Source: an uncultured Trueperaceae bacterium (GTDB lineage Bacteria; Deinococcota; Deinococci; Deinococcales; Trueperaceae). From it: a DNA stretch of 64,000 nt. The position numbers and the translations under genes are program-made. The DNA lies in NCBI GenBank assembly GCA_963815215.1, contig CAWFFU010000009.1, positions 32,001-96,000 on the forward strand, given 5' to 3'. The stretch's first letter is position 1, and the number at the start of each line of letters is the position of its first letter. Positions 6,450-61,292 of the stretch are shown here, piece by piece. Under the pieces are notes generated by a model that saw only the letters and a program-made list of their open reading frames with translations, was not told where the DNA came from and ran no database searches.

Positions 6450-7784
6450 TCACATCAGGCTGGCTTTGAGGTCGCGGACGGTGCTCGCGAGCACCTTGTC
6501 GGACTGGATCTGGTCGCCCACCTTCTGGACCGCGTACATCACGGTCGAGTGATCGCGACCCGAGAAGTACTGCCCGATCTCCGGATAGGAGTGGGGCGTC
6601 AACTCGCGGATCAGGTACATGGCGATCTGACGCGGTACGACCAGCTCCTGGCGCCGCCCTTTGCCGCGCACGTCGACCGTGTCGACTTCGAAGCGTTCGG
6701 CCGTCACCCGCAGGATGTCGGCCATGGTCAGGCTCAACTCGCCGGGAGCGAACACGTCCGAGAGCGCCTTGGCGACCGTCTGCTGATCGAGGGTCGCCTG
6801 GTTCATCGAGGCGAACACGATGGCGCGCACCAGCGCGCCTTCCAGCTCACGGATGTTCGAAGTGACGTGGCGAGCGATGTAGTCGAGGACCTCCGAGGGG
6901 ACCTTGACGCCGCGATACTCGGCGTTCATCCTCAGGATCGCGATGCGTGTCTCCAACTCGGGGGCCTGGATGTCGGTGATCAGGCCCCACTCGAAGCGGC
7001 TGCGCAACCGCTTCTCGAGGGTGGGGATGTCCTTCGGGGGGCGGTCGGACGACAGGATGATCTGTTTGCCGGACTCGTAGAGGGCGTTGAAGGTGTGGAA
7101 GAACTCCTCCTGCGTGCGCTCCTTGCCGGCGATGAACTGGATGTCGTCGATGAGCAGGAGGTCGATGGTGCGGTAACGATCGCGGAAGGAGACCATGCGG
7201 TCCTCGCGGATCGCGTTGATCATCTCGTTGGTGAAGGCCTCCGTCGTCGCATACTCGATCACCAGGTTGGGATAGCGCTCGGTCACGGCGTGGCCCACCG
7301 CGTGCATGAGGTGGGTCTTGCCGAGGCCGGCGTCCCCGTACAGGAACAGCGGGTTGTAGGCGCGGCCCGGCGACTCGGCGACGGCCAGGGCGGCGGCGTG
7401 CGCCAGGTTGTTGTTGGGGCCCACCACGAAGTTGGAGAACACGTACTTGGGATTGAGGCGGGGCTTGGGGGCGGGCACCGCCGGCCCCGACTCCTGGTGT
7501 GTGCTGAACATGTCCTGCTGCTCGATGGTCTGGAACGGGACGACCTGGAAGGCCACGCGCGGCGTGTCCGCGCCGAGGTCGGTGAGGGCCCGCTCGATGA
7601 CCTCGGCATAGTGTCCCTTGAGCCAGTCGCGGGCGAAGGAGTGCGGCACACCGACCAGGAAGGCGCCGTTCTCGAAGCCGAGCGGCTTCACCTGGCGGAA
7701 CCAGGTGCGGAACTCGACCTCCGGGATCTCTTCCCGGAGCGCCTCGAGGATGTCCTCCCAGATCGCTTCGTCGCGGCTCAGCAT
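6450..7784 (-). CDS. dnaA: Chromosomal replication initiator DnaA
   Basis: [52 protein letters not shown]; start assigned at MLSRDEAIW. Confidence 0.98.
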
Positions 7785-8250
7785 TCCAGCGGTGGTCCTC
7801 TCGCCCGCCGCAACGGCGGGCCGGGTCGCATACTTGGTGAGACGCGCACGGCCGGGGAGGCCTAGGTCGGGATGGTCCCGGCTGGCACGGCGTATCGGGC
7901 GCCGGGGATGACCCTGGCGCGGGCCGCGCCGAACGGCTCCGAGGCCGGTCCGGTGCGGCGGTTCAGGGACGCAGTCTAGCAGAACCCGGCGGGCGGTCCG
8001 GGGGGTGGTTGGAGGCGCCGCCGGCAGGGCGTGACGAACGGTGCGGAGGCTGCGGCGGAGGCGCCGGAGGCATTCGGGTAGCGGGGCGGATCGGGGGGCG
8101 GACGCTGCTCGGACGGGGCGGGTTGCGGAGGCTAGGTGTGGGGCGCATGCGGCGGGGTAGGCTGCCGGGGTAGAGGAGGGAGGCTCGCGAGGCGCGGCCC
8201 GCGCCCCCTCGGGACGGACAGGGAAGGACCGACAGGGAAGGGTGGAAGGC

Positions 8251-10068
8251 ATGCAGTTCGACGTGATTGTCGTCGGCGGCGGTCACGCCGGGATCGAGGC
8301 CAGCGTCGCGGCCGCGAGACTGGGAGCGCGCACGGCGTTGGTGCTGCCGAACCCGGACACGATCGGCGTGATGCCGTGCAATCCGGCCATCGGCGGTCCC
8401 GGCAAGTCGCAGCTGGTGTTCGAGATCGTGGCGCTCGGCGGGGTGATGGGGCAGCTCGCCGACGAGACGGCCATCCACGCCCGCACGTTGAACGCGAGCA
8501 AGGGTCCGGCGGTGCAATCGCTGCGCGTGCAGAACGAACGTGACGGGTACGCCGTGGCGGCGCGCGCGCTGGTGGAGTCGACGACCGGTGTGGAGATCGT
8601 CCGGGCCGAGGTGGCATCGCTGACGGTGGAGGACGGGGCGGTGGTGGGGGTCGAGACCACCGATGGCCGCAGACTGCGGGCCCCGAGCGTGGTGCTGTGC
8701 ACCGGCACCTTCCTCGCCGGCGTGGTCTGGTACGGCAAGCAACAGCGGCCGGCGGGGCGCCAGGGGGAGGCTCCGGCGCGGCACTTGTCCGCCAGCCTGC
8801 GGGCGAGCGGGCACGAGCTGATGCGCTTCAAGACCGGCACGCCGCCGCGCATCCGCGCCGACTCGGTCGACCTGGGCGCGCTGCAGGAGGTCCCCCCCGA
8901 CGACCCGCCGCGGAGCTTCACGGGCACGGCCGGGCCCAGGGTCCGGCACTCGCCCACCTGGCTGACGCGCACCACTGCGCGCACGCACGAGCTCATCAAC
9001 GCCAACCTTCAGGCCTCGGCCATGTACGGCGGGGAGATCGAGGGGCGGGGACCGCGCTACTGCCCGTCGATCGAGGACAAGGTCGTGCGCTTCGGCGACC
9101 GCGATCATCACCTGCTGTTCGTCGAGCCGGACGGCGTGAACACCAGCGAGCTCTACCTGCAGGGGTTCTCGAGCTCGATGCCGCCCGTGTTGCAGGACGA
9201 CATGATCCGTACCTTGCCGGGCTTCGAGCGCGCCGTGATCCAACGCTACGCCTACGCGGTCGAGTACGACGCGCTCGACCCCACGCAGTTGGCGGTCACC
9301 ATGATGTCGCGCCGTCTGCCCGGGCTGTTCAGCGCGGGGCAGATCAACGGCACCAGCGGCTACGAGGAGGCGGCGGCGCAGGGTTTGGTCGCGGGCGTCA
9401 ACGCGGCGCGGTTCGCGGCCGGCGCGGAGTTGGTGACCGTCCGGAGGGACGAGGGCTACATCGGGGTGCTGCTCGACGATCTGGTGAGGTGGGGAGTCGA
9501 TGAGCCGTACCGGATGTTGACGTCGCGGAACGAGTTCCGATTGCTGCATCGACAGGACAACGCGGCCGAGCGGTTGAGCGCGAAGGGTCATCGCTGGGGC
9601 CTGGTGGACGAGCGGCGGCTGGCCGCCGTGCGGGCCAGCGTGGCGCGGGTCGAGCGGGAGGCGGCCCGGCTGGGCTCGGTTCGCCATCAGGGGGATCCCG
9701 GCACCAAGATCCTGTGCCGGCCGGGCATGGATCATGCCGCGGTGACGGCCTTGGTGGGGGCGCCGGACGAGCCGCTCGACCGGGACGAGGTCGAGCGGGT
9801 GGAGATCGTGGTCAGGTACGCCTCGTACATCGAGCGTTCCAAGAAGCACCTCGACGAGCGGAGTGAGTACGAGGGGCTGAGCCTGGCGGGGGTCGACTTC
9901 GAAGGGGTCGCGAGCCTGTCAACCGAGGGGCGCGAGGTGCTGCAACGCGGGGCGCCGCACACGCTGGGCGCGGCGCAACGTCTGCGCGGCGTGCGCGATA
10001 GCGACGTGACGGCTCTCCTGGTGCACATGAAGACGCGCGGTGTTTCACGTGAAACTGTCGCCACCTGA
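8251..10068 (+). CDS. mnmG: tRNA uridine-5-carboxymethylaminomethyl modification enzyme MnmG (GidA)
   Basis: [56 protein letters not shown]. Confidence 0.97.
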
Positions 10069-52520: not shown

Positions 52521-53711
52521 TCAACGCCCCGCGCGTGGGTCCAGATACGGTAGCGGGTCGATGGGCTGGTTGTGCACCCGTATCTCGAAGTGCACGTGGG
52601 GACCCGTCGAGTCGCCGGTGCTCCCCACGCGCGCGATCAGCGCTCCGGCCTGAACCGTCTCACCGCGTTGGACCAGCAGCACCGATGCGTGCCCGTAGTA
52701 GTAGTCGGTGTCGCCGTTGCGGATGATGATGCACAGACCGTAACCGCCGTTCCATCCGGCCAGCGCCACGGTGCCGCCTACGGCGGCGTGGATCGGCTCA
52801 CCGATATGGCCCGCGATGTCGAGGCCCGTGTGGAAGTTGGACCCGGCAACGCGCAACAGACGGTACCCGAAGTAGGACGTGATGCGTCCCTGGATGGGCC
52901 ACAGCATGGACTTCATGGAATTGGGTTGCGGCCCCCCGGCCGGCGGGGCGGCACGACCGAGCTCGTTGGGTAGCACGATGGTGAGACTCTGACCCGGGAA
53001 CAGCTCGGTGGAGGACAGCCCGTTGGCGCTCATCAGCGCGGCGACCGTGGTGCCGTTCGCGTGCGCGATCGACCACAGGCTCTCGCCCTTGGTGACGCTG
53101 ACTGTCGGGGGTGCTGCCCCGCCCACGTCGGTACTGGCCGAGGCGTACTGCCCTGGCACCCTCAACGTCTCGCCCGGCTGCAACGTGGCGTTCGCAGTGA
53201 TGCCGTTGGCACCCGTCAGGGCGGCGACCGTGATGCCATGAGCCTGGGCGATACCCCAGAGCGTGTCGCCCGATCGGACCGCGACACGCAACGCCGGGGG
53301 CGTGCTCTTCCCGGGGCGCAGGACGAGCTTCTGGCCCGGGCGAATGACCGAGCCGGAGAGATGGTTGTAGGCGATCAGATCCTCGACGCTCAAGTGAGAC
53401 CCCAGCGCGATGCTGTAGAGCGAGTCCCCCGGTTGAACCACGTAGGTGACGGGATTCGCGTCGCTCCCAGAAGGCAGTTGCAGGGCGGTCCCCGGCTGCA
53501 GATGGTCACCGGCGAGATGGTTGGTGGTCTTCAGCGCCTCCACCGTAGTGCCGTAGCGCTGCGCGATGGCCCAGAGGCTGTCACCGGGCTGCACAGTCAC
53601 GCTGGCGACCGGCCCAGGCGTGGACGTGCCGCCGTCGGCGAAGGAAACACCGACCAGCGTCGAGAGAAGGATCGCGACCATGAGAAGGAAATGCCGAATC
53701 GTAGGCACCAT
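52521..53711 (-). CDS. Secreted 4xLysM plus M23 peptidoglycan endopeptidase
   Basis: Signal peptide; four GD(S/T)L(W/Y)-type LysM repeats; HTGLD and HVHFE zinc motifs. Confidence 0.93.
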   Translation of the reverse strand: MVPTIRHFLLMVAILLSTLVGVSFADGGTSTPGPVASVTVQPGDSLWAIAQRYGTTVEALKTTNHLAGDHLQPGTALQLPSGSDANPVTYVVQPGDSLYSIALGSHLSVEDLIAYNHLSGSVIRPGQKLVLRPGKSTPPALRVAVRSGDTLWGIAQAHGITVAALTGANGITANATLQPGETLRVPGQYASASTDVGGAAPPTVSVTKGESLWSIAHANGTTVAALMSANGLSSTELFPGQSLTIVLPNELGRAAPPAGGPQPNSMKSMLWPIQGRITSYFGYRLLRVAGSNFHTGLDIAGHIGEPIHAAVGGTVALAGWNGGYGLCIIIRNGDTDYYYGHASVLLVQRGETVQAGALIARVGSTGDSTGPHVHFEIRVHNQPIDPLPYLDPRAGR

Positions 53712-53983
53712 CACACCCTAACCGGCTGAGGCGCACCGACGCCCCGAGAAGCCGCCGATGGAGTCCCGAGGACGATATCCGACACCGAATCCGACCTTAT
53801 GAGAGGTCCGTCTCAGCATGCCCGCTTCGACTCCCATGATGTGTGCATCCGGTTCCCTGGGCCCATGGCTTCCCACGCGGTTGGTTCCCGGATCACGGGG
53901 GTCGCGCGTCGGCCGAGGTCGCGGGAATGCCTTCTCACCTGTTGCACACATCGCTCCTCATGCCGCAGTGGTATTTTCGCCGC

Positions 53984-54844
53984 ATGCGATGGTGGCTCGC
54001 GATCCTCTCGATGGCCCTTGCCCCGGCCACCTTCGCTCAAGCTCCCGCCACGCCTCCCGTTCCCACCTGCGCCGTCGCCGACGTTTCCACTGCCTTCACG
54101 GGCTACGACCAGTGGCCGTACACCATGGTCGACACCCACTTCCGGCTGCCCGCCGACTACGCCCCGCCCGACCTCGTCTCCACCAGCGAAGCGGGCCTGA
54201 ACGGCGACCAGCGACTGCGAGCCTTCGTCATCCCGCATCTCGGAGCCCTGGCCGAAGCCGCCGCCGCCGCGGGCCATCCCATCGCCGTCCAGAGCGGCTA
54301 CCGCTCCTACCACACGCAGGTCGTCACGTTCGACTACTGGGTGAAGGTCGACGGCTACGCCTACGCCCTGAAGTCCAGCGCCAGGCCGGGGCACTCCGAG
54401 CACCAGCTCGGCACCGCCCTCGACATCCGCGCGAAGGGCGGCAAGGCACCGTGGGACTATCAGGACTGGGCGGCCACGCCGACCGGCTCGTGGGTCGCGG
54501 CCAACGCCTGGCGGTACGGCTTCGCGATGAGCTACCCGAAGGGCGAAGAGGCCACGACCTGCTACATGTACGAGCCCTGGCACTACCGCTTCTTCGGCCT
54601 CGCCGAAGCGAAGCGCATACACGACGCCGCCACGACCACCCGCGCGTACCTGTGGGCGCGCTGGCAAGCCAGTCCCCAGGCGACGACGGCGTCAGCGGCC
54701 AACCCGTCCAGCATCACCGTCCAAGCCGGGGACACGCTCTGGAGCCTCGCGCAACGCTACGGCACCACCGTCACCGCTCTACGGAAGGCCAACGGCCTGA
54801 CCAGCGACATGCTGAACGTCGGCGCGACCCTCGTCCTACCCTAG
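53984..54844 (+). CDS. M15B (VanY-like) D,D-carboxypeptidase with C-terminal LysM
   Basis: SGYRSY, SARPGHSEHQLGTALD, YEPWHYRF; LysM GDTLWSLAQRYG; start MRWWLAIL after leaderless TATTTT. Confidence 0.9.
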   Translation: MRWWLAILSMALAPATFAQAPATPPVPTCAVADVSTAFTGYDQWPYTMVDTHFRLPADYAPPDLVSTSEAGLNGDQRLRAFVIPHLGALAEAAAAAGHPIAVQSGYRSYHTQVVTFDYWVKVDGYAYALKSSARPGHSEHQLGTALDIRAKGGKAPWDYQDWAATPTGSWVAANAWRYGFAMSYPKGEEATTCYMYEPWHYRFFGLAEAKRIHDAATTTRAYLWARWQASPQATTASAANPSSITVQAGDTLWSLAQRYGTTVTALRKANGLTSDMLNVGATLVLP

Positions 54845-54911
54845 GAGCGCCGGCGCTCGGAGCTGGACCCTTCCGACACGTGGACGAGGTCATATGCCGA
54901 GCGTATCGACC

Positions 54912-55442
54912 TCATGATCGATCGGTCGCCGTCGGCTCCGCGGCGATCACCCCGAGCTTGAGCATGGTCCGGCGCAGCGATCTGAGATCGGCGTTGGTGA
55001 GGCGGCCGGTGAAGTGCTCCTCGATCTTGCGGTGGTGCTCCGCCGCGAGCCGGTCGCAGGTGGTGCGGCCCTTCTCCGTGAGCGCGGCGTAGGAACCGCG
55101 CCGATCGCCGGGCACCGGCTGGCGTTGCACCAGCCCCGCTCTCTCCATGCGGTCGACCAGGCGGGTGAGGCCGCTGCGGGTGAGGACGACGGCGTCGGCC
55201 AGGTCCTGCATCCGGAGGCGTTGCTCGGGGGCGTAGGCGAGCTGGATCAGCACGTCGTACCAGGACAGGGAGAAGTCGTCGCCCTTCATGTCCTCCTCGA
55301 AGGCGCGGAGCAGGCCTGTGACGGTCCGCAGCGTCAACTCCCACACCTGCGCCCCGAGCTGCGCGTCGTCGGCTCGCGAGGTGCCGGAGGAGGCGTCCTG
55401 GGCCTCGGCAGCGGACGTCGTCGGGTTGCGCGAGGTCGGCAT
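54912..55442 (-). CDS. MarR-family transcriptional regulator
   Basis: LSWYDVL..LRMQDLA..TRSGLTRLVDRME..GLV.R..DRRG..LT.KG. Confidence 0.93.
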   Translation of the reverse strand: MPTSRNPTTSAAEAQDASSGTSRADDAQLGAQVWELTLRTVTGLLRAFEEDMKGDDFSLSWYDVLIQLAYAPEQRLRMQDLADAVVLTRSGLTRLVDRMERAGLVQRQPVPGDRRGSYAALTEKGRTTCDRLAAEHHRKIEEHFTGRLTNADLRSLRRTMLKLGVIAAEPTATDRS

Positions 55443-55464
55443 GCCTCAGTATGTCGACTGAAAA

Positions 55465-55520
55465 TTGTAGGCGCAATGATTGACAACGCAACCACAGTCT
55501 GCTAGTGTCTGCCCACGCAA
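55465..55520 (+). promoter_or_regulatory. Sigma70 promoter overlapped by three TTG-N6-CAA-type boxes (probable MarR operators)
   Basis: TTGACA (55480)-17 nt-TAGTGT (55503) with extended TG; boxes ttgtaggcgcaa 55465, ttgacaacgcaa 55480, ctgcccacgcaa 55509. Confidence 0.75.
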
Positions 55521-55715
55521 TCAGCGCGTTAACGAGGGATCGAAGCGGCGGCAGGGTCCTGCCCGGCGTAGGCGGAGATCAACGGCAAGGCGGGCGTGAC
55601 CCGCCGGTCCGAGGTCGGCTACCTCGACCGCGTCGCCAAGGCGGCCCCGTAGGCACGCCTTGGGCGTGACTCGATAGGCCCCGCGGGACGATCGAGCGGT
55701 CGGAAGGGGGCCCAG

Positions 55716-56687
55716 GTGGAGATCGTCTGGTTCGACGAGGAACGCAGTCGAGACGTCGCCCTGGTGGGAGGGAAGGCCGCGAGCTTGAGTCGTCTGGCGG
55801 CCCGCCACCGGGTGCCGCCCGCGTTCTGCCTCACCACGGCGGCGTACGACGTCTGGAGTCGCACGGCACGGCCCGCGCACCGTCAAGGGACGCTCCCGTT
55901 GCCACAGACGCTGCGCGCGTCGCTCCGGCAGGCCTACGACGAGCTCGGGCGGCGCTGCGGGGTCGACGCGCTGCGCGTGGCCGTACGTTCGTCGGCCGTC
56001 GACGAGGACGGTGCCGAGGCTTCGTTCGCGGGCCAGCACGAGACCTTCCTCAACGTGATCGGGATGGACGCCGTCGGCGAGGCCCTGATCCGTTGCTGGA
56101 GCTCGGGGCGCAGCCAGCGCGCGCTGGCCTACCGCCACAGCAGCGGCCTGGACGGCGAGCGGATCCGGCTGGCCGTGCTGGTACAGCAACTCGTGCCGGC
56201 GGACGCCTCGGCCGTCGTGTTCAGTGCCGACCCCGTCAACGGTCGACGCGACCAGGTCCTGATCGACGCCAGCTTCGGGCTCGGCGAGAGCATCGTCGGG
56301 GGCTCGGTGACGCCCGACGCCTACCGCGTGGACAAGCGCTCGGGGGTCGTGGTCGACCGCACCATCGGCTCCAAGACCGTCATGCACATCCCGGCGCCCG
56401 GGGGTACCCGGGAGGTGCCGGTGCCCCGTCCGCTGCGTGCGCTACCTGCCCTGACCGACGAGCAGTGCGCTTCCTGCGCCGCCCTCGCCACCTCCCTAGA
56501 GGCCGAGATGGGTCACCCCGTCGACGTCGAGTGCGCGTTCCACGACGGCCGGCTCTACCTGCTGCAATGCCGCCCGATCACCCGTCTGCCGGCGGACCCG
56601 GCCGAGGCGCAGGCTCCCCGCCTCGACGAGGAGGTGGAGGCCGAGCCCGATCATGACGACCCGCTACCGCCGCATCCCCAGGCCTGA
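55716..56687 (+). CDS. Stand-alone ATP-grasp (PPDK_N) subunit of a dikinase-type phosphotransferase
   Basis: VGGKAASL, VAVRSSAVDEDG..SFAGQHETFLNV, GLGESIVGG..TPD, DVECA..LLQCRPIT. Confidence 0.9.
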   Translation: MEIVWFDEERSRDVALVGGKAASLSRLAARHRVPPAFCLTTAAYDVWSRTARPAHRQGTLPLPQTLRASLRQAYDELGRRCGVDALRVAVRSSAVDEDGAEASFAGQHETFLNVIGMDAVGEALIRCWSSGRSQRALAYRHSSGLDGERIRLAVLVQQLVPADASAVVFSADPVNGRRDQVLIDASFGLGESIVGGSVTPDAYRVDKRSGVVVDRTIGSKTVMHIPAPGGTREVPVPRPLRALPALTDEQCASCAALATSLEAEMGHPVDVECAFHDGRLYLLQCRPITRLPADPAEAQAPRLDEEVEAEPDHDDPLPPHPQA

Positions 56688-56714
56688 CCGGTGGACCCCA
56701 GGAGGAGAGAAGCC

Positions 56715-58418
56715 ATGACCGACTCGCACGCTGCACCCTTCACCGCTGTGCCCATCCCGACGCCCGAGGACTTCCCGCTGACGTGGGACGATCCGATGGA
56801 AGCGAAGCTCCAATGGGTGCGCGACCGCATGCACTTTCCGCAGGTCGTGTCGCCCGCCCTGGACCTGTTCTTCGAGGCCCACAACGCCGGCTTCGTCCAC
56901 GCCTTCGCGCTCTACGAGATGCCGCTCGAAGCACTGGTGCTCCGCCGCATCAACGGCTACGCCTACAGCGCCACGGTCCCCCGGCAACTGACGCACGACG
57001 AGATGGCGGCCATGGGCCAGCGCGCGCAGCACAACCTCGGGGCGGCCATGATGCGCTTGGCCGGACACTGGAACGATGACCTGCTGCCCGAAGTGAAGGA
57101 GCACCTGCGCTTCTGGCAGGACGCCGACCTGTCGGGCGCCTCGCTCGATCAGCTCGTCGCCCTCGCCGAGGAGACGCGTCGGCGCTGGAAGCGGCTGTGG
57201 GAGATCCACTTCGAGCTGATGGTCCCGACGCTGCTCGCCGGCTCGCTGTTCCAGGACACCTACGCCGACCTCTTCGGCGTCGAGCAGGCGTTCGACGCCT
57301 ACACGCTGCTGCAGGGCTTCGGCAACAAGACCACCGAGATCAACGTCGCCCTGTGGCGTCTAGCGCATGAGGCGAGCGAGGACGTTCGCGAGGTCGTCCT
57401 CGGCACGGGAACGCCCGGTATCGCGGGCGCTCTCCGCGCGACCGACTCCGGGCGCCGCTTCCTGGAGGCCTTCGACGCCTACCTGCAGGAGTACGGCCGG
57501 CGCAGCGAGACGTGGGAGCTGGGCATCCCGACCTGGCTCGAGGACCCCACGCCGGTCTGGCGCATGTTGCGCGAACACCTCGCGCAGCCGGAGACCGACC
57601 CCGAGGCCGAGCTGACCCGCCTGGCCGAGCTGCGCGAGGCCGCCGTGGCCGACACCCGCGCCCGGCTCGCCGACTACCCTCGGCCGGTGGTCGAGCACTT
57701 CGAAGCCATGCTCCGCGCGGCGCAGGCCGGCGTGGTGCTGTCCGAGGACCACGGCTTCTACATCGACTTCGACGGCGCCTACCACGTCCGCCGGGTGCTG
57801 CTCGAGCTCGGGCGGCGCATGGCGGCCGCGGGCGCGTTGGCGTCCGCCGACGACGTCATGCTGCTCACGCTCGATGAGGTCCTGGAGTCGGTGCACGAGC
57901 AACCGATCGCCGACCGCCGCGCGCTCGTCGAGGAACGTCGTCGCGAGCTCGCCCGCTTCGGCGCCGTGCAAGAGCCCGAGATGGTGGGTACCCAGCAGGC
58001 CGGCCCGCCGCCGGAAGACCCGGTCGGCCGCGCCATCGGGCGCTTCTTCGGCACGCCTCCGCAGGAGAGCGCCGATCCCGAGGTCCTGAAGGGGCATGCC
58101 GGCTCGCCCGGCGTGGCAAGGGGCGTGGCACGCGTGGCGCGGTCGCTGTCCGAGGCCCAGAACGTGCGCCGGGGGGAGATCCTGGTCGCGGCCATGACCG
58201 CCCCGTCGTGGACGCCGCTCTTCGGCACGGTCGCGGCGGTCGTCACCGACACGGGCGGCGTGCTGTCGCACAGCGCTGTGGTGGCGCGCGAGTACGGCAT
58301 CCCGGCTGTGGTCGGCACGCTCCGGGCCACCGCGCTCGTCCACGACGGGCAGATCATCGAGGTCGACGGCGCCGCCGGCACGGTGCGCCTCGTCACGGCC
58401 GGCGCCGAGTTGGCTTGA
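56715..58418 (+). CDS. Substrate-binding plus phospho-His swivel subunit of a dikinase-type phosphotransferase (RPH / phenylphosphate-synthase-like)
   Basis: FDAYLQEYGRR..W.EDP central domain; GSPG.ARG, T.PSWTPLF, GGVLSHSAVVAREYGIPAVVG; no PEP-binding barrel. Confidence 0.88.
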   Translation: MTDSHAAPFTAVPIPTPEDFPLTWDDPMEAKLQWVRDRMHFPQVVSPALDLFFEAHNAGFVHAFALYEMPLEALVLRRINGYAYSATVPRQLTHDEMAAMGQRAQHNLGAAMMRLAGHWNDDLLPEVKEHLRFWQDADLSGASLDQLVALAEETRRRWKRLWEIHFELMVPTLLAGSLFQDTYADLFGVEQAFDAYTLLQGFGNKTTEINVALWRLAHEASEDVREVVLGTGTPGIAGALRATDSGRRFLEAFDAYLQEYGRRSETWELGIPTWLEDPTPVWRMLREHLAQPETDPEAELTRLAELREAAVADTRARLADYPRPVVEHFEAMLRAAQAGVVLSEDHGFYIDFDGAYHVRRVLLELGRRMAAAGALASADDVMLLTLDEVLESVHEQPIADRRALVEERRRELARFGAVQEPEMVGTQQAGPPPEDPVGRAIGRFFGTPPQESADPEVLKGHAGSPGVARGVARVARSLSEAQNVRRGEILVAAMTAPSWTPLFGTVAAVVTDTGGVLSHSAVVAREYGIPAVVGTLRATALVHDGQIIEVDGAAGTVRLVTAGAELA

Positions 58419-59902
58419 ACTCGCGCGAGACCGCCAGGGAGGAGGTCCGCCTCGTCGTCGCCGTCGCCCTGACGACGATGCTGGCGCCCCTCAACTCGAC
58501 GATGATCGCGGTGGCGCTGCCGCCCATCGCGGCCCAGTTCCACGCTAGAGCGTCCGTTCCCTGGCTGGTGACGGGCTACCTCATCGCCATGGCCTCGCTC
58601 CAACCGGTCGCCGGCAAGCTCGGCGACCGGTTCGGACGTCGGCCTCTGCTGCTCGGTGGCCTCGCCTACTTCGCGCTCGCCTCGCTGGGCGCCGCCCTCT
58701 CTCCGAGCTTCGGCTGGCTGCTGGCGTTCCGCATCCAGCAAGGCATCGCAGGTGCCCTCGCCTTCCCCAACGGCGCCGCGATGCTGCGCGAAGCGATCCC
58801 GGATGCCCGGCGAGGAGGCCGCTTCGGCCTGATCGGCGCGGGGGCGGGCCTGGCCGCCGCGGTGGGACCGCCGCTCGCCGGCGTGCTGGTGTGGTCGAGC
58901 GGCTGGCCGTCCATCTTCTACGTCAACGTGATGCTCATCGTGCCGGCGGCCTGGCTGGGATGGCGCGCCTTCCCCCGCGCCCGCCCCCGCCCCGCGCGGG
59001 GCGGGGCGCAGGGCCCGTCCCGGCGCCCCTTCGACCTACTCGGAGCGACGCTCCTGTCGGTCACGCTGATCACGGTGGCCGCCGAGCTCACGCACCATGG
59101 GCCGCTCGGAACGTGGGGCGTGGTGGGCTGGGCGTTCGCGGTCATGGCATCGATCGCCTTCGCGGTAGTGGAGTGGCGCCACCCGGACCCTGCGGTGCAG
59201 CTCCGGCTGTTCGGGCGCAGGGCCTTCGCGGCGGCCAACGCGTCGGTCGCCACCAGCAACTTCGCCATGTACGTGACGCTGCTAGCGGTGCCGCTGCTGC
59301 TGACCGATCGTTCGGGTACCAGCATCGGGGCCGGTGCGGTGCTGGCCGCCATGTCGGGCGCGATGTTCGTCGCCTCGCCGGTCGGTGGAGCGCTGGCCGA
59401 TCGCTGGGGGCGCCGCCGTCCGGCGCTGTTGGGCCTCAGCCTCCTGGTCGCCGGCACGCTCTTGCTGGCCGTGGCCGGATCGGACATCTCGATCCGCGTG
59501 CTGGTGGGGGCATTGATGCTCGTCGGCCTCGGCATCGGCACCGGTACCGCCGCCCTGCAGACGACCGCCGTGGAGGCCGCCCCGGCGCGCGATGCCGGCA
59601 TGGCCTCGGGGGTCTACACGACCAGCCGATACCTGGGTAGCATCGTCGGCTCGGCCCTGCTCGCGCGCCTGGCGGCCGGGACCGGTGCGCTCGCGGGGCC
59701 GGCGTTCATCGGGACCGTGTTCGTCCTGGTCGCGGTCGCCGCCGTCCTGGCGCTGGTCGCCGCCTTCGGGCTGCAGGATCGCCCCGCGGCTCGGCCCGGA
59801 TCCGCGCCGGAGGCGGTTGGGGCAGGGGCGGTTGAGGCAGGGGCGGTTGAGGCAGGGGCGGCAGGGGCCGGGGCGGCAGAGGCCGGGGCGTCGAGAGGCT
59901 AG
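58415..59902 (+). CDS. MFS efflux transporter (DHA2/EmrB-like)
   Basis: LNSTMIAVALP, GKLGDRFGRR, RIQQG, GPPLAG..WPSIFYVN; TTGA overlap with the upstream gene. Confidence 0.92.
   Translation: MNSRETAREEVRLVVAVALTTMLAPLNSTMIAVALPPIAAQFHARASVPWLVTGYLIAMASLQPVAGKLGDRFGRRPLLLGGLAYFALASLGAALSPSFGWLLAFRIQQGIAGALAFPNGAAMLREAIPDARRGGRFGLIGAGAGLAAAVGPPLAGVLVWSSGWPSIFYVNVMLIVPAAWLGWRAFPRARPRPARGGAQGPSRRPFDLLGATLLSVTLITVAAELTHHGPLGTWGVVGWAFAVMASIAFAVVEWRHPDPAVQLRLFGRRAFAAANASVATSNFAMYVTLLAVPLLLTDRSGTSIGAGAVLAAMSGAMFVASPVGGALADRWGRRRPALLGLSLLVAGTLLLAVAGSDISIRVLVGALMLVGLGIGTGTAALQTTAVEAAPARDAGMASGVYTTSRYLGSIVGSALLARLAAGTGALAGPAFIGTVFVLVAVAAVLALVAAFGLQDRPAARPGSAPEAVGAGAVEAGAVEAGAAGAGAAEAGASRG
59813..59887 (+). 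repeat. Five degenerate 15-bp tandem repeats encoding A(V/A)(E/G)AG at the MFS C-terminus
   Basis: gcggttggggcaggg gcggttgaggcaggg gcggttgaggcaggg gcggcaggggccggg gcggcagaggccggg. Confidence 0.85.
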
Positions 59903-60002
59903 CGTGCGGAGCGGGCCGGGCGGCCCGGAACCGGTCTGCAAGCACGGGTGGGATCGTCTCGCCGGCGCTCGACGCGACGGCTCCGACGCCGCGCCCCGAT
60001 CC

Positions 60003-60051
60003 ATTGAAATCTCTTCAATATCTTGACGTCGCTTTCTGCGTCCCATACAAT
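60003..60051 (+). promoter_or_regulatory. Sigma70 promoter with upstream palindrome for the M24/peptide-ABC operon
   Basis: ATTGAA-atctc-TTCAAT (60003-60019); TTGACG (60023)-17 nt-TACAAT (60046). Confidence 0.8.
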
Positions 60052-60095
60052 CCGCCCAACCCGATGTCGGCTGCAAGCGACGCCAGGAGGGCACG

Positions 60096-61292
60096 TTGTC
60101 TCGTCTCGGTCAAGAGAAGTCCCGTCAGGCGCTCGCTTTCGTCCCCAAGGACGATGCCTGGATCTTCGTCACGCGCGAGGGAAGCGATCCCGGCGCCCGG
60201 CTGGTGTTCGACGCCGCGGTCAGCGGCGAGGCGGCCTTCGTCCTGCGTCCGGGGCGAGGTGCGCTGGCGCTCGTCGCCAACTACGACGCCGGTCACGTCG
60301 AGCGGCTCGGGGTGTTCGACGAGATCCGCAGCTACGACCGCTCGTTCGCGAACGCCTTCACCGCCTGGCTGCGTGAGCTGGCGCCCGCTACCGTCCACCT
60401 GAACTACAGCGAACGCGACATCCTGTGCGACGGCCTCACGCACGGTCAGTTCCTGCGCACGACGCGTCTCCTGGGCGAGGCCCTGCCGGGCGTCGCGGTC
60501 GCGAGCAGCGAGCCCTACCTGCGCGAGGTGCGCGGCCGCAAGACCGCCGAGGAGGTGAGCCGGCTGCGTGAGGCGATCCGCGGCAGTGGCGCGCTCTACG
60601 CGCGCATCCGGCGCGAGCTGCGGCCCGGCATGAGCGAGCGCGAGGTGCAGGCGCGCATGAACGCCATCGCGGCCGAGCTCGGCTTCGGCGTCCACCTCGG
60701 CGACTACGGCGGCCCGTTGGTGTGCATCAACCGCGTCGGACTCGCCCACCGTGCGCCGGGGGACGACGTCCTGCAGGAGGGCGACCTGCTCATCCTCGAC
60801 CACGGGCTCGAGCACCAGGGGTACCACTCCGACATCGCACGCACGATCTACCTCCCGCGCCGGGGCGAGACGGAGCCGCCGGCCGCGGAGGCGGCCGCCT
60901 TCGCCTCCGCCCGTCAGGCCATCGAGGCGGCGTTCGCCGTGCTGCGGCCCGGCGTCAAGGGTTACGAGGTCGACGCCGCTGCGCGCCAGACCCACCTGGA
61001 CAACGGCTATCCCGAGATCAGCCACGCCACCGGCCACCAGATCGGCCGCTTCGTCCATGACGGCGGCACGACGCTGGCGCCCCGTTGGGAACGCTACGGC
61101 GACGCTCCCGAGGGCGAGGTCGCGGCCGGCAACGTGTTCACCCTCGAGCCCACCATCCTGATGTCGCCCGCGCCCTCCATGCTGGTCGAGGAGGACGTGC
61201 TCGTCACCGACGCCGGCGCGCAGTGGTTGAGCGAGCGCCAGCTCACCTTGTGGATGGCGGGCGACGACCGACCGCCTCCATCCGCGTCCTAG
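60096..61292 (+). CDS. M24 family (Xaa-Pro-like) metallopeptidase
   Basis: RGRKTAEEV, DHG..GYHSDIART, HATGHQIG..VHD, TLEP, VEED; AGGAGG SD. Confidence 0.9.
   Translation: MSRLGQEKSRQALAFVPKDDAWIFVTREGSDPGARLVFDAAVSGEAAFVLRPGRGALALVANYDAGHVERLGVFDEIRSYDRSFANAFTAWLRELAPATVHLNYSERDILCDGLTHGQFLRTTRLLGEALPGVAVASSEPYLREVRGRKTAEEVSRLREAIRGSGALYARIRRELRPGMSEREVQARMNAIAAELGFGVHLGDYGGPLVCINRVGLAHRAPGDDVLQEGDLLILDHGLEHQGYHSDIARTIYLPRRGETEPPAAEAAAFASARQAIEAAFAVLRPGVKGYEVDAAARQTHLDNGYPEISHATGHQIGRFVHDGGTTLAPRWERYGDAPEGEVAAGNVFTLEPTILMSPAPSMLVEEDVLVTDAGAQWLSERQLTLWMAGDDRPPPSAS

What the first reader, a model, noticed from the sequence alone, without database searches (positions are those of the whole stretch)
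54912..59902. MarR-controlled two-subunit dikinase-type phosphotransferase plus MFS exporter: candidate small-molecule phosphorylation/efflux system
Seen: an ATP-grasp gene (55716-56687) and a separate gene with a large helical central domain and His swivel (SHSAVVARE) but no PEP/pyruvate barrel. The second gene is translationally coupled to a DHA2 MFS pump, and the unit is divergent from marR with repeated operator boxes. Known: this domain set defines rifamycin phosphotransferase RPH and B. subtilis YvkC flavonoid phosphate synthetase (single chains; yvkC lies near an MFS gene and a regulator), while Thauera phenylphosphate synthase splits it into two subunits as here. Inference: an inducible detoxification module that phosphorylates an unknown phenolic or antibiotic and exports it; I know of no characterised Deinococcota example.
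Basis: partly seen in the sequence, partly recalled or inferred. Interest (0 to 1): 0.75.

Follow-up and report, generated by a model that had tools for sequence, protein, structure and literature searches.

The report
Split RPH-like dikinase wired to efflux pump
Four genes encode a two-part ATP-driven enzyme that probably adds phosphate to an unknown small molecule, a membrane pump read off the same message and a repressor; it is a plausible but untested drug or toxin defence unit built from already known kinds of parts.

Summary
These genes are present:
- marR (54912-55442, minus strand)
- subunit A, an ATP-grasp-only gene (55716-56687)
- subunit B (56715-58418), a helical substrate domain plus His-swivel with no PEP/pyruvate barrel
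- a roughly 14-helix MFS gene (58415-59902) that overlaps the stop of B by 4 nt

The split is real. It has its own stop, Shine-Dalgarno sequence and ATG, and it recurs in independent assemblies. Relatives in the same bacterial family carry A and B fused in one 833-843 aa protein, again overlapping an MFS gene.

The model of B (pLDDT 90.6) matches only Listeria rifampin phosphotransferase over its full length. A and B score far below the NCBIfam cut-offs for RPH, PigC, RedH and PEP synthase.

Two-component dikinases of this design are already published (PpsAB, CreHI, HpeHI, AcvAB), and all of those are catabolic. Here the kinase-pump unit stands alone, is patchily distributed, and recurs in Actinomycetota at about 50% identity for all three genes. 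Its nearest clade-mates include C-terminal domains of NRPS megasynthases.

Best reading (about 0.5): a MarR-controlled defence cassette that phosphorylates and pumps out an unknown xenobiotic or natural product. The substrate and the direction of transport are inferred, not shown. I rate it a new variant of a known kind, of moderate interest.

The parts
54912..55442 (-). marR-family repressor gene (176 aa), divergent from the dikinase-pump operon
   Evidence: Pfam MarR_2 57.4 bits (cut-off 27) and MarR 43.9 bits. All NCBIfam named MarR equivalogs score far below their cut-offs; the best is HpaR at 39.8 against 121. The nearest solved chains are 3zmd and 3zpl, both MarR-family. Orthologues at 63-68% identity sit divergently next to A in L005, L007 and L101.
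55443..55715 (.). 273-bp control region. It holds a palindromic box TTGTAGGCGCAA (55465-55476), a -35-like TTGACA (55480-55485), ACGCAACC (55486-55493), a -10-like TAGTGT (55503-55508), CGCAATCAGCG (55516-55526), and then a roughly 190-nt GC-rich leader.
   Evidence: The boxes at 55465-55476 and 55516-55526 are conserved in L005 and L007. The region has no Rfam match at E<=1. The leader fold is no better than shuffles, z -0.60. Operator function is inferred.
55716..56687 (+). Subunit A: stand-alone ATP-grasp (nucleotide-binding) subunit, 323 aa, with a roughly 29-aa acidic, Pro-rich tail after the domain
   Evidence: PF01326 at 261 bits, covering profile positions 2-324 of 328. PDB hits: PEP synthase 8a8e 204 bits, RPH 169-170 bits, HpeI 9GOJ 152 bits. 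Residues 3-294 align to residues 5-286 of fused relatives.
56700..56705 (+). Shine-Dalgarno AGGAGG for subunit B, 9 nt upstream of the ATG at 56715
56715..58418 (+). Subunit B: substrate-binding helical domain plus phosphohistidine swivel domain, 567 aa. The ORF is also open from GTG at 56691.
   Evidence: Only PF00391 is found. The AlphaFold model has pLDDT 90.6 and pTM 0.89. Foldseek matches RPH-Lm 5FBT/5HV1 at E 1e-20, TMq 0.69-0.72, about 590 columns and 20% identity; all other hits cover the swivel only. By sequence, residues 224-559 match RPH 543-865 at E 8e-28.
58167..58379 (+). Swivel (PEP-utilizers mobile) domain. It carries the motif TDTGGVLSH at 58245-58271, with the His519 codon at 58269-58271.
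   Evidence: T511, G514, G515, L517, S518 and H519 are invariant in 43 aligned homologues. The motif T/SxxGGxxxH and the His role are as described for HpeH, RPH and PpsA in PMC12167813 (sections 8 and 10 read).
58415..59902 (+). MFS transporter, 495 aa from TTG at 58415 (TTGA overlap with the stop of B). It has roughly 14 hydrophobic segments and is DHA2-like.
   Evidence: MFS_1 at 246 bits. TIGR00711 EmrB/DHA2 scores 184.3 bits against a 230.2 cut-off, and the other top NCBIfam hits are efflux pumps. The nearest solved chains are QacA 96.7 bits, EmrB, Rv1410-type, NorC-type and EfpA. A hydropathy scan gives 12 distinct peaks (14 rows listed, two of them one-residue duplicates) at a cut-off of 1.3 in a 19-residue window; about 14 helices is my estimate, and the DRxGRR motif occurs at residues 71 and 329. 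Start choice follows the orthologue alignment.

Best explanation
What it is. This is a self-contained, MarR-repressed defence cassette.

Shown by homology:
- Subunit A binds ATP.
- Subunit B carries the swivelling His519. In the published RPH/PpsAB/HpeHI mechanism this His takes the beta-phosphate of ATP at A, with AMP and Pi released, and then delivers it to a hydroxyl of a small molecule held in the RPH-type helical substrate domain of B.

Shown by sequence:
- The MFS gene is translated from the same message by re-initiation at an overlapping stop/start.

Inferred:
- The pump is a DHA2-type drug/H+ exporter.
- The substrate is a xenobiotic or natural-product antibiotic, possibly peptide-like or phenolic, that also relieves MarR repression at the GCAA boxes.
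- The cell then both pumps the compound out and phosphorylates whatever gets in.
For: 1. Domain and fold identity.

2. A and B are partners.
- They are adjacent in every Trueperaceae/Deinococcales orthologous locus whose upstream flank is present: L005, L006, L007, L009, L101, L102 and L104.
- Relatives at 40-42% (B) and 51-52% (A) identity are single 833-843 aa proteins with both domains. The join falls exactly where the window's genes split.

3. The kinase-pump link is conserved.
- An MFS at 78-83% identity follows B in L005, L006, L007, L008, L009, L102 and L104.
- An MFS at 47-51% identity follows B in two Actinomycetota loci, L010 and L013, where A and B are equally diverged.
- An MFS at 42-43% identity follows the fused enzymes in L106, L107 and L108.
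- A stop/start overlap of 4 nt occurs in the window, L005, L007, L102, L104 and L108, and of 1 nt in L106.

4. The pump's best matches are exporters.

5. marR lies divergently in the window, L005, L007 and L101, with conserved boxes.

6. The flanking genes differ between loci and include no aromatic-catabolic genes.

7. Distribution is patchy.
- Orthologues at >=70% identity occur in 5 of the 300 other Deinococcota genomes searched, all within the 102 of the window's own family.
- The second family gave 1 of 112, a weak hit; the third gave 0 of 62.

8. In the tree, the window's starred 17-row clade includes an NRPS-fused B domain and a fused enzyme.
- At least 6 of the best 150 cluster representatives are NRPS-type proteins ending in this domain.

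9. Characterised non-catabolic relatives inactivate or modify xenobiotics: RPH (PDB titles) and YvkC/FpsC, which acts on flavonoids (PMC10221552, passage).
Against: - There is no experimental datum for this clade, and the substrate is unknown.
- All four characterised two-component dikinases (PpsAB, CreHI, HpeHI, AcvAB) start catabolic pathways (PMC12167813; PMC12624787, passages).
- MarR regulators also control aromatic catabolism. The best, though very weak, NCBIfam hit of this MarR is the catabolic regulator HpaR.
- The pump misses the curated DHA2 cut-off, 184 against 230 bits, so the direction of transport is not established.
- A phosphorylated product is anionic and is not a typical DHA2 substrate.
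- marR was not found with this query near A in L006, L009, L102 or L104. One orthologous copy, L101, has marR-A-B but no MFS.
- Several clade-mates lack an adjacent MFS: L054; L014 (NRPS-linked); and the Chloroflexota loci L011, L012 and L018, plus L062, which was dropped from the tree. L016 ends within B, so its downstream side is unknown.
- No close relative lies on a known plasmid; the best is 31% identity.
Confidence: 0.5

Rival explanations
1. Scavenging or catabolic entry. The MFS imports a phenolic or similar compound, or the compound diffuses in. A/B then phosphorylates it to trap it, as proposed for HpeHI, and later pathway steps are encoded elsewhere.
For: All characterised two-component dikinases are catabolic, and trapping by phosphorylation is proposed in the Discussion of PMC12167813 (read). 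MarR-type regulators commonly sense phenolics; the best named hit is HpaR at 39.8 bits. The next-nearest clade, at 30-33% identity, sits in catabolic-looking clusters with Amidohydro_2, beta-oxidation genes and sigma54 regulators.
Against: No catabolic genes flank the cassette in the window or in any of the orthologous loci examined, and the flanks differ between loci. The pump's best NCBIfam and PDB matches are exporters. A is less similar to HpeI (152 bits) than to PEP synthase (204 bits) or RPH (169 bits). The window's clade is separated from the catabolic-looking clade by a long starred branch.
Confidence: 0.2
2. Export of a self-made phosphorylated product. A/B phosphorylates an endogenous metabolite or pro-drug and the MFS secretes it. 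This would resemble producers that export inactive phosphorylated antibiotics, an example I recall and did not look up.
For: Translational coupling sets a fixed enzyme-to-pump ratio. Clade-mates are fused to or adjacent to NRPS genes.
Against: No biosynthetic genes lie near the cassette in the window or its orthologues. A repressor of the MarR type fits induction by an outside compound better. DHA2-like pumps are not known to me as carriers of phosphate esters (recalled).
Confidence: 0.12
3. A true rifamycin phosphotransferase (RPH orthologue) that happens to be split.
For: RPH is the only full-length structural match of B, and some sources label homologues 'rifampicin phosphotransferase'.
Against: NCBIfam RIF_Ptrans_rph scores are 225.5 bits for A plus 151.2 for B, against a cut-off of 999. 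NF000283 scores are 172 plus 112 against 1700. Identity to RPH-Lm is 20% in the structural alignment. The same genome has a separate fused paralogue that is much closer to RPH, at 787 bits, and it is only 32% (B) and 39% (A) identical to this pair.
Confidence: 0.07
4. The split is an assembly or sequencing artefact, or a decaying pseudogene.
For: One orthologue (L009) has B in three frames, and L054 also shows a frameshift.
Against: The window has a clean stop, SD and ATG. The same two-gene layout is seen in L005, L007, L101, L102 and L104, and in Actinomycetota loci L010 and L013. Of the best 150 cluster representatives, 122 are of stand-alone B size. High third-position GC supports both ORFs in the orthologues.
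Confidence: 0.01

Closest known systems
Two-component small-molecule dikinases: HpeHI (Rhodococcus), CreHI (Corynebacterium), PpsAB phenylphosphate synthase (Thauera) and AcvAB (Sphingobium)
   Same: Both have a separate ATP-grasp subunit plus a subunit with an RPH-type substrate domain and a His swivel, and neither has a PEP/pyruvate barrel. Both carry the T/SxxGGxxxH motif with Ser before the His, as in PpsA and CreH. The expected chemistry is ATP -> AMP + Pi + phospho-substrate through a phospho-His (PMC12167813, sections 8 and 10 read).
   Different: The published enzymes all open aromatic catabolic pathways and lie in catabolic clusters. This pair lies with a pump and a repressor only. 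A scores lower against HpeI (9GOJ, 152 bits) than against PEP synthase or RPH. B could not be compared with HpeH, CreH or PpsA directly, because no sequence was available to the tools. A is 323 aa and B is 567 aa, against 40.6 and 71.1 kDa for HpeI and HpeH.
Rifampin phosphotransferase RPH (Listeria RPH-Lm, PDB 5FBS/5FBT/5HV1)
   Same: It is the only full-length fold match of B, with the same three-domain logic and the same phospho-His swivel. It is a defence enzyme rather than a catabolic one.
   Different: RPH is a single chain. Identity is about 20%. NCBIfam RPH models are missed by a wide margin. No pump is part of the RPH definition.
YvkC/FpsC flavonoid phosphate synthetase of Bacillus subtilis
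   Same: It is a promiscuous ATP -> AMP + Pi phosphotransferase acting on plant polyphenols (PMC10221552 and PMC13099321, passages).
   Different: It is a single chain, and no sequence or model was available for a test.
PigC/RedH prodiginine ligases
   Same: They share the ATP-grasp and swivel domains and have comparable NCBIfam partial scores.
   Different: They are single-chain condensing enzymes inside pigment gene clusters. Scores are 209+147 against a cut-off of 1300, and 222+158 against 1350. No such cluster is present here.
DHA2 (14-helix) drug/H+ antiporters such as QacA and EmrB
   Same: They are the best NCBIfam and PDB matches. The protein has roughly 14 hydrophobic segments and the DRxGRR loop motif.
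   Different: The score is below the TIGR00711 cut-off. No known DHA2 pump is described, in the papers I searched, as translationally coupled to a dikinase.

Membership tests
Two-component small-molecule dikinases (PpsAB/CreHI/HpeHI/AcvAB type) | The ATP-grasp subunit and the substrate-plus-swivel subunit are encoded as two adjacent genes | tested here: met
   The layout is conserved in L005, L007, L101, L102, L104, L010 and L013.
Two-component small-molecule dikinases (PpsAB/CreHI/HpeHI/AcvAB type) | The large subunit has the RPH-type substrate domain plus a swivel and lacks the PEP/pyruvate barrel | tested here: met
   Pfam finds only PF00391. Foldseek gives a full-length match to RPH only.
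Two-component small-molecule dikinases (PpsAB/CreHI/HpeHI/AcvAB type) | Catalytic His in a T/SxxGGxxxH motif | tested here: met
   TDTGGVLSH, with His519. The motif is invariant in 43 homologues.
Two-component small-molecule dikinases (PpsAB/CreHI/HpeHI/AcvAB type) | Close sequence kinship with the characterised members (about 45% pairwise among HpeH, CreH and PpsA) | tested here: inconclusive
   Only HpeI (9GOJ) could be compared: A scores 152 bits, lower than against PEP synthase (204) or RPH (169). No HpeH, CreH or PpsA sequence was available to the tools.
Two-component small-molecule dikinases (PpsAB/CreHI/HpeHI/AcvAB type) | Embedded in an aromatic catabolic gene cluster | tested here: not met
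   The neighbours are marR, an MFS, an M24 peptidase and VanY/LysM and M23/LysM cell-wall enzymes. The flanks of orthologues vary.
Two-component small-molecule dikinases (PpsAB/CreHI/HpeHI/AcvAB type) | ATP -> AMP + Pi + phosphorylated substrate, abolished by mutating the His | not testable with these tools
   This needs a biochemical assay.
Rifamycin-inactivating phosphotransferase (NCBIfam NF041857, NF000283) | Score at or above the curated cut-off | tested here: not met
   NF041857: A 225.5 plus B 151.2 against 999. NF000283: 172 plus 112.4 against 1700.
Rifamycin-inactivating phosphotransferase (NCBIfam NF041857, NF000283) | Single polypeptide carrying all three domains | tested here: not met
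   Two genes.
Rifamycin-inactivating phosphotransferase (NCBIfam NF041857, NF000283) | Rifamycin phosphorylation | not testable with these tools
   This needs a biochemical assay.
PigC / RedH ligases (NF052631, NF052632) | Score at or above the curated cut-off | tested here: not met
   PigC: 208.6 plus 146.9 against 1300. RedH: 221.6 plus 158.4 against 1350.
PEP synthase / PPDK | C-terminal PEP/pyruvate-binding barrel and a family HMM score above the cut-off | tested here: not met
   No barrel family was found. PEP synthase scores are 237 for A and 104 for B against 598. The genome has true PEP synthase (1151 bits) and PPDK (1268 bits) elsewhere.
YvkC/FpsC flavonoid phosphate synthetase | Sequence kinship or activity on flavonoids | not testable with these tools
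   No model or sequence is held.
DHA2 MFS efflux (TIGR00711) | Score at or above the curated cut-off | tested here: not met
   184.3 bits against 230.2.
DHA2 MFS efflux (TIGR00711) | 14 transmembrane segments | tested here: inconclusive
   The hydropathy scan gives 12 distinct peaks (14 rows listed, two of them one-residue duplicates) at a cut-off of 1.3; two further weak segments are my own reading. The protein aligns over residues 10-421 with the 14-helix QacA.
MarR family | Winged-helix MarR domain above the Pfam cut-off | tested here: met
   MarR_2 at 57.4 bits against 27.

The most novel reading that the evidence does not exclude
The dikinase-pump unit, whether split or fused and always read through an overlapping stop/start into a DHA2-like MFS, is an undescribed type of resistance determinant against a phosphorylatable non-ribosomal peptide-type natural product. 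On this reading it descends from the self-protection or tailoring domain that myxobacterial NRPS megasynthases carry after their thioesterase, and it has been passed between Deinococcota and Actinomycetota. A bolder variant is that enzyme and pump act as one vectorial machine, with phosphorylation coupled to transport.
Probability: 0.18. Interest if true: 0.75.

Novelty: new variant of a known kind. Interest (0 to 1): 0.45.

Why it matters
If the reading is right, antibiotic or xenobiotic phosphorylation by RPH-type dikinases reaches well beyond rifamycins and Firmicutes/Actinomycetes. It would also come as a compact, transferable enzyme-plus-pump cassette, which resistance-gene catalogues would currently label only 'PEP-utilizing enzyme' and 'MFS transporter'.

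The pairing gives a handle for finding substrates. The MarR ligand, the pump substrate and the kinase substrate should be the same or related molecules, and the NRPS-fused relatives point to where such molecules are made.

If the catabolic rival is right instead, this would be the first two-component phenolic kinase outside the known pathways, and the first in Deinococcota. Either way the enzyme design itself is already in print, so the gain is in function and context, not in mechanism.

Tried and rejected
- Riboswitch or leader RNA in the 273-bp region: no Rfam match at E<=1 over 54500-60500. The fold of 55515-55720 is no better than shuffles, z -0.60. Rejected.
- Promoter and terminator scan over 54700-60300: it found only a site at 60023-60051, before the next gene, and no terminator. 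The promoter-like site I describe fails that tool's -10 rule.
- Mobile carriage: tblastn of B against 72,556 plasmids gave 233 records but none close. The best was 31% identity, and 4 records covered >=80% of the query.
- Earlier scan notes at this place and by sequence: nothing found.
- I used NCBIfam cut-offs, PDB sequence hits and an unanchored tree instead.
- The tree is a 'quick' IQ-TREE run with several long branches (L085, L086 and the own-genome fused paralogue used as outgroup). L062 was dropped for an internal stop. L009, L016, L054 and L008 were excluded by the >=500-residue single-alignment filter.
- The MFS label needs 2 changes on that tree, so a single origin is neither shown nor excluded.
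- Heterodimer prediction: not run. Fused relatives already show that A and B belong together, and a pass would rest on likeness to solved RPH.
- P0191 (5532 aa) could not be scanned because it exceeds the size limit.
- My GC3-based ORF picking mis-called some genes, for example the MFS in L010. For those loci I rely on tblastn.
- L100, L103 and L105 were fetched but not analysed, because their contig lengths equal those of L005, L006 and L009. I did not count them twice.
- Supplements not seen: Figs S8-S16 of PMC12167813 (alignments, models) and Datasets S2/S3 of PMC12624787 (570 genomes with AcvAB/HpeHI homologues). They might list Deinococcota members or pump-linked examples.

Full report
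**1. What is in the window**

Four genes sit between 54912 and 59902.
- marR (54912-55442, minus strand) has a clear MarR domain.
- Gene A lies 273 bp away on the plus strand (55716-56687). Its 323 residues are a complete PPDK_N ATP-grasp domain and nothing else (PF01326, 261 bits, profile positions 2-324 of 328).
- A ends with TGA at 56685-56687. AGGAGG follows at 56700-56705 and an ATG at 56715, so gene B has its own ribosome-binding site.
- B (to 58418; 567 aa from the ATG) has one Pfam hit, the PEP-utilizers mobile domain near its C-terminus. It has no PEP/pyruvate barrel. The motif TDTGGVLSH places the phospho-carrier His at residue 519.
- The MFS frame overlaps B. Its TTG at 58415 shares TTGA with the stop of B.

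**2. The split is real and sits at a domain boundary**

- The two-gene layout recurs in independent assemblies. These are L005, L007, L101, L102 and L104 from Trueperaceae/Deinococcales-type genomes at 71-81% identity for B, and L010 and L013 from Actinomycetota at 45-53%.
- Of the best 150 representatives in a search of 1.84 billion proteins, 122 have stand-alone B size, 13 have fused A-B size, 10 exceed 1000 aa and 5 are short.
- In the same bacterial family as the window, a sister group encodes A and B as one 833-843 aa protein carrying both Pfam domains (L106, L107, L108).
- Window A residues 3-294 align to fused residues 5-286, and window B residues 8-561 align to fused residues 279-831. 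The split therefore falls exactly between the domains, and A keeps an extra acidic, Pro-rich tail.
- These fused relatives show that A and B act together. I ran no further search on it.

**3. What the enzyme is**

- A 43-sequence alignment gave a confident model of B, with pLDDT 90.6 and pTM 0.89.
- Foldseek against the PDB finds Listeria rifampin phosphotransferase as the only full-length match: E 1e-20, TM 0.69-0.72 on the query, about 590 columns and 20% identity. Every other hit covers the swivel domain alone.
- By sequence, B 224-559 matches RPH 543-865.
- A matches PEP synthase (204 bits), RPH (169-170 bits) and HpeI (9GOJ, 152 bits).
- Curated NCBIfam models are all missed by a wide margin, even when the two halves are summed. 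RPH scores 225+151 against 999, PigC 209+147 against 1300, RedH 222+158 against 1350, and PEP synthase 237 and 104 against 598.
- The genome holds a true PEP synthase, a true PPDK and a separate fused RPH-like gene (787 bits against the 999 cut-off). That fused gene is only 39% (A) and 32% (B, C-terminal part) identical to this pair.

The pair is therefore a member of the RPH-like small-molecule dikinase superfamily, but it belongs to none of the named families.

**4. What is already known**

- PMC12167813 (abstract, sections 8 and 10, and passages read) describes HpeHI. It explicitly defines a two-component subfamily together with CreHI and PpsAB.
- In that subfamily the small subunit is the RPH ATP-grasp domain, and the large subunit is the RPH rifampin-binding domain plus the swivel domain.
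- The His attacks the beta-phosphate of ATP, the gamma-phosphate is released, and the phospho-His phosphorylates a phenolic hydroxyl.
- The large subunit alone can pass phosphate between substrates, and the two subunits form no stable complex.
- PMC12624787 (passages) adds AcvAB.
- All of these enzymes open catabolic pathways.
- The window's B shares the T/SxxGGxxxH motif and, like PpsA and CreH, has Ser before the His.

The enzyme design is therefore not new. My literature searches found no paper in the held library on a Deinococcota member or on a dikinase wired to a pump.

**5. The conserved context is the new element**

- An MFS gene follows B in the window and in L005, L006, L007, L008 (partial), L009 (where B is frameshifted), L102 and L104, at 78-83% identity.
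- It also follows B in the Actinomycetota loci L010 and L013 at 47-51% identity, where A (52-53%) and B (45-51%) are equally diverged.
- It follows the fused enzymes of L106, L107 and L108 at 42-43% identity.
- In the window, L005, L007, L102, L104 and L108 the MFS start overlaps the kinase stop by 4 nt, and in L106 by 1 nt.
- The three genes thus travel and diverge as one unit across two phyla and across the split/fused divide.
- There are exceptions:
  - L101 is a second copy in one genome and has marR-A-B without an MFS.
  - L054 has a sodium:dicarboxylate symporter gene upstream of A and no MFS; L016 shares that upstream gene, but its contig ends within B, so what follows is unknown.
  - L014 is NRPS-linked.
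  - Four Chloroflexota loci show B without an adjacent A or MFS within the flanks held.
- marR is divergent from A in the window, L005, L007 and L101 only.
- Two boxes of the intergenic region, TTGY-N4-GCAA and CGCAAYCARCG, are conserved among the window, L005 and L007.
- The flanking genes differ from locus to locus, and none is an aromatic-catabolic gene.

**6. The pump**

- Its best NCBIfam hit is DHA2/EmrB, at 184 bits against a cut-off of 230. The rest of the top list is almost entirely drug exporters.
- The nearest solved chains are QacA (96.7 bits over residues 10-421), EmrB, a mycobacterial lipid exporter, a NorC-type pump and EfpA.
- Hydropathy suggests about 14 helices, and the DRxGRR loop motif is present twice.
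- This favours export but does not prove it.

**7. Distribution and relatives**

- Of 301 Deinococcota genomes searched (G000 included), 28 have any match at E<=1e-30.
- Orthologues at >=70% identity occur in 5 other genomes, all in the window's family. The second family gave 1 of 112, a weak hit, and the third gave 0 of 62.
- No close relative lies on a known plasmid.
- In a quick maximum-likelihood tree of 85 B-type sequences, the window falls in a starred 17-row clade. That clade holds the Trueperaceae group, the two Actinomycetota cassettes, two Chloroflexota genes, metagenomic proteins, a fused enzyme, and the C-terminal domain of a Nannocystis punicea NRPS.
- A long starred branch separates it from a 63-row clade. 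Five sampled loci of that clade encode A, an Amidohydro_2 protein, unknown proteins and B, together with beta-oxidation genes and sigma54 regulators.
- At least six of the best 150 representatives are NRPS-type proteins that end in thioesterase followed by this B domain.
- A Bacillus cereus megaplasmid has NRPS-A-B-thioesterase.

**8. Reading**

- Shown: the identity and fold of the parts, the reality of the split, the partnership of A and B, the conserved translational link to an MFS, and a conserved footprint in front of the operon.
- Inferred from homology: the phospho-His dikinase chemistry.
- Inferred from context: export, repression by MarR, and a xenobiotic or natural-product substrate.

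I put 0.5 on the defence-cassette reading, 0.2 on scavenging or catabolic entry, 0.12 on export of a self-made phosphorylated product, 0.07 on a true rifamycin enzyme, and 0.01 on an artefact.

Earlier notes of this scan describe other split dikinases, as one-to-many arrays in ultra-small bacteria, with the same closest known families. They agree that the design is widespread, but none involves a pump.

**9. Verdict**

This is a correct observation and a sensible but unproven interpretation. The enzyme type is already published. The hard-wired kinase-pump cassette and its kinship with NRPS-borne domains are, as far as my searches reach, undescribed. I rate it a new variant of a known kind, with interest 0.45.

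Noticed in passing
L014:21-6659 (Nannocystis punicea); proteins P0134, P0159, P0171, P0190, P0203, P0174: NRPS megasynthases (C-A-(MT)-T-TE, some with TubC docking domains) end in the RPH-type substrate-plus-swivel 'B' domain. In L014 a P450 gene and a separate ATP-grasp gene (51% identical to window A) follow. This suggests on-line or post-release phosphorylation of a non-ribosomal peptide. I did not search the literature for it.
   Followed up: partly
L086:1-7367 (Bacillus cereus megaplasmid): The annotated order is NRPS, then a stand-alone ATP-grasp gene, then a stand-alone B gene (27% identical to window B), then thioesterase, PPTase and ABC transporter. This is a split dikinase inside a biosynthetic cluster.
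   Followed up: no
L022, L031, L057, L067, L079 (five loci sampled from a 63-row clade): B homologues at 30-33% identity were examined in these five loci. In L022, L057, L067 and L079 the order is ATP-grasp, Amidohydro_2, unknown proteins, B and an unknown 370-aa protein; L031 has no ATP-grasp or Amidohydro_2 gene within the flank held. L022 and L031 carry sigma54 two-component regulators, and L031, L067 and L079 carry beta-oxidation genes. The 63-row clade comes from sulfate reducers, syntrophs, Pelotomaculum, Acidobacteriota and Alphaproteobacteria. It looks like an uncharacterised kinase-dependent catabolic pathway.
   Followed up: partly
L087:1826-4690 (-), own genome, another contig: The same genome has a fused 954-aa RPH-like gene scoring 787 bits on the NCBIfam rifamycin phosphotransferase model (cut-off 999) and 928 bits on PRK06241.1-3 (cut-off 945). 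It is a second, distinct small-molecule dikinase.
   Followed up: partly
L106:3231-7138, L108:3162-7165, L107:2649-6532 and 6677-9869: Fused A-B enzymes followed by an overlapping MFS gene occur in other genera of the window's family. L107 has two such units in tandem, and the MFS of the second is truncated and joined to a glycosidase fragment.
   Followed up: partly
L101 and L102 (two contigs of one genome, G171): One genome has two copies of the pair. One copy has a divergent marR but no MFS, and the other has the MFS but no marR within the flank. This hints that regulator and pump can be separated.
   Followed up: no
L005:2024-2467, L007:3143-3598: A conserved small ORF lies between marR and A in two orthologous loci. 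Its last roughly 92 residues are 86% identical between them, and it has no Pfam hit at 1e-5. It is absent from the window (no tblastn hit better than E 0.4).
   Followed up: partly
P0127, P0121, P0262: Other fusions of the B or swivel module occur: B plus ThiF plus nitroreductase (1242 aa), two B modules in tandem (1123 aa), and a protein with five swivel domains (1832 aa).
   Followed up: no
window 52521-54844 and 60096-61292: The cassette is flanked by cell-wall enzymes, an M23 peptidase with four LysM repeats and a VanY-type D-Ala-D-Ala carboxypeptidase with LysM, and downstream by an M24 peptidase with its own promoter-like site at 60023-60051. No link to the cassette is seen in orthologous loci.
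   Followed up: no
window 58437-58445: A strong Shine-Dalgarno-like GGGAGGAGG lies inside the first codons of the MFS gene, with no standard in-frame start within 30 nt downstream. Its meaning is unclear; it could be a pause or internal re-initiation signal, or chance in GC-rich DNA.
   Followed up: no
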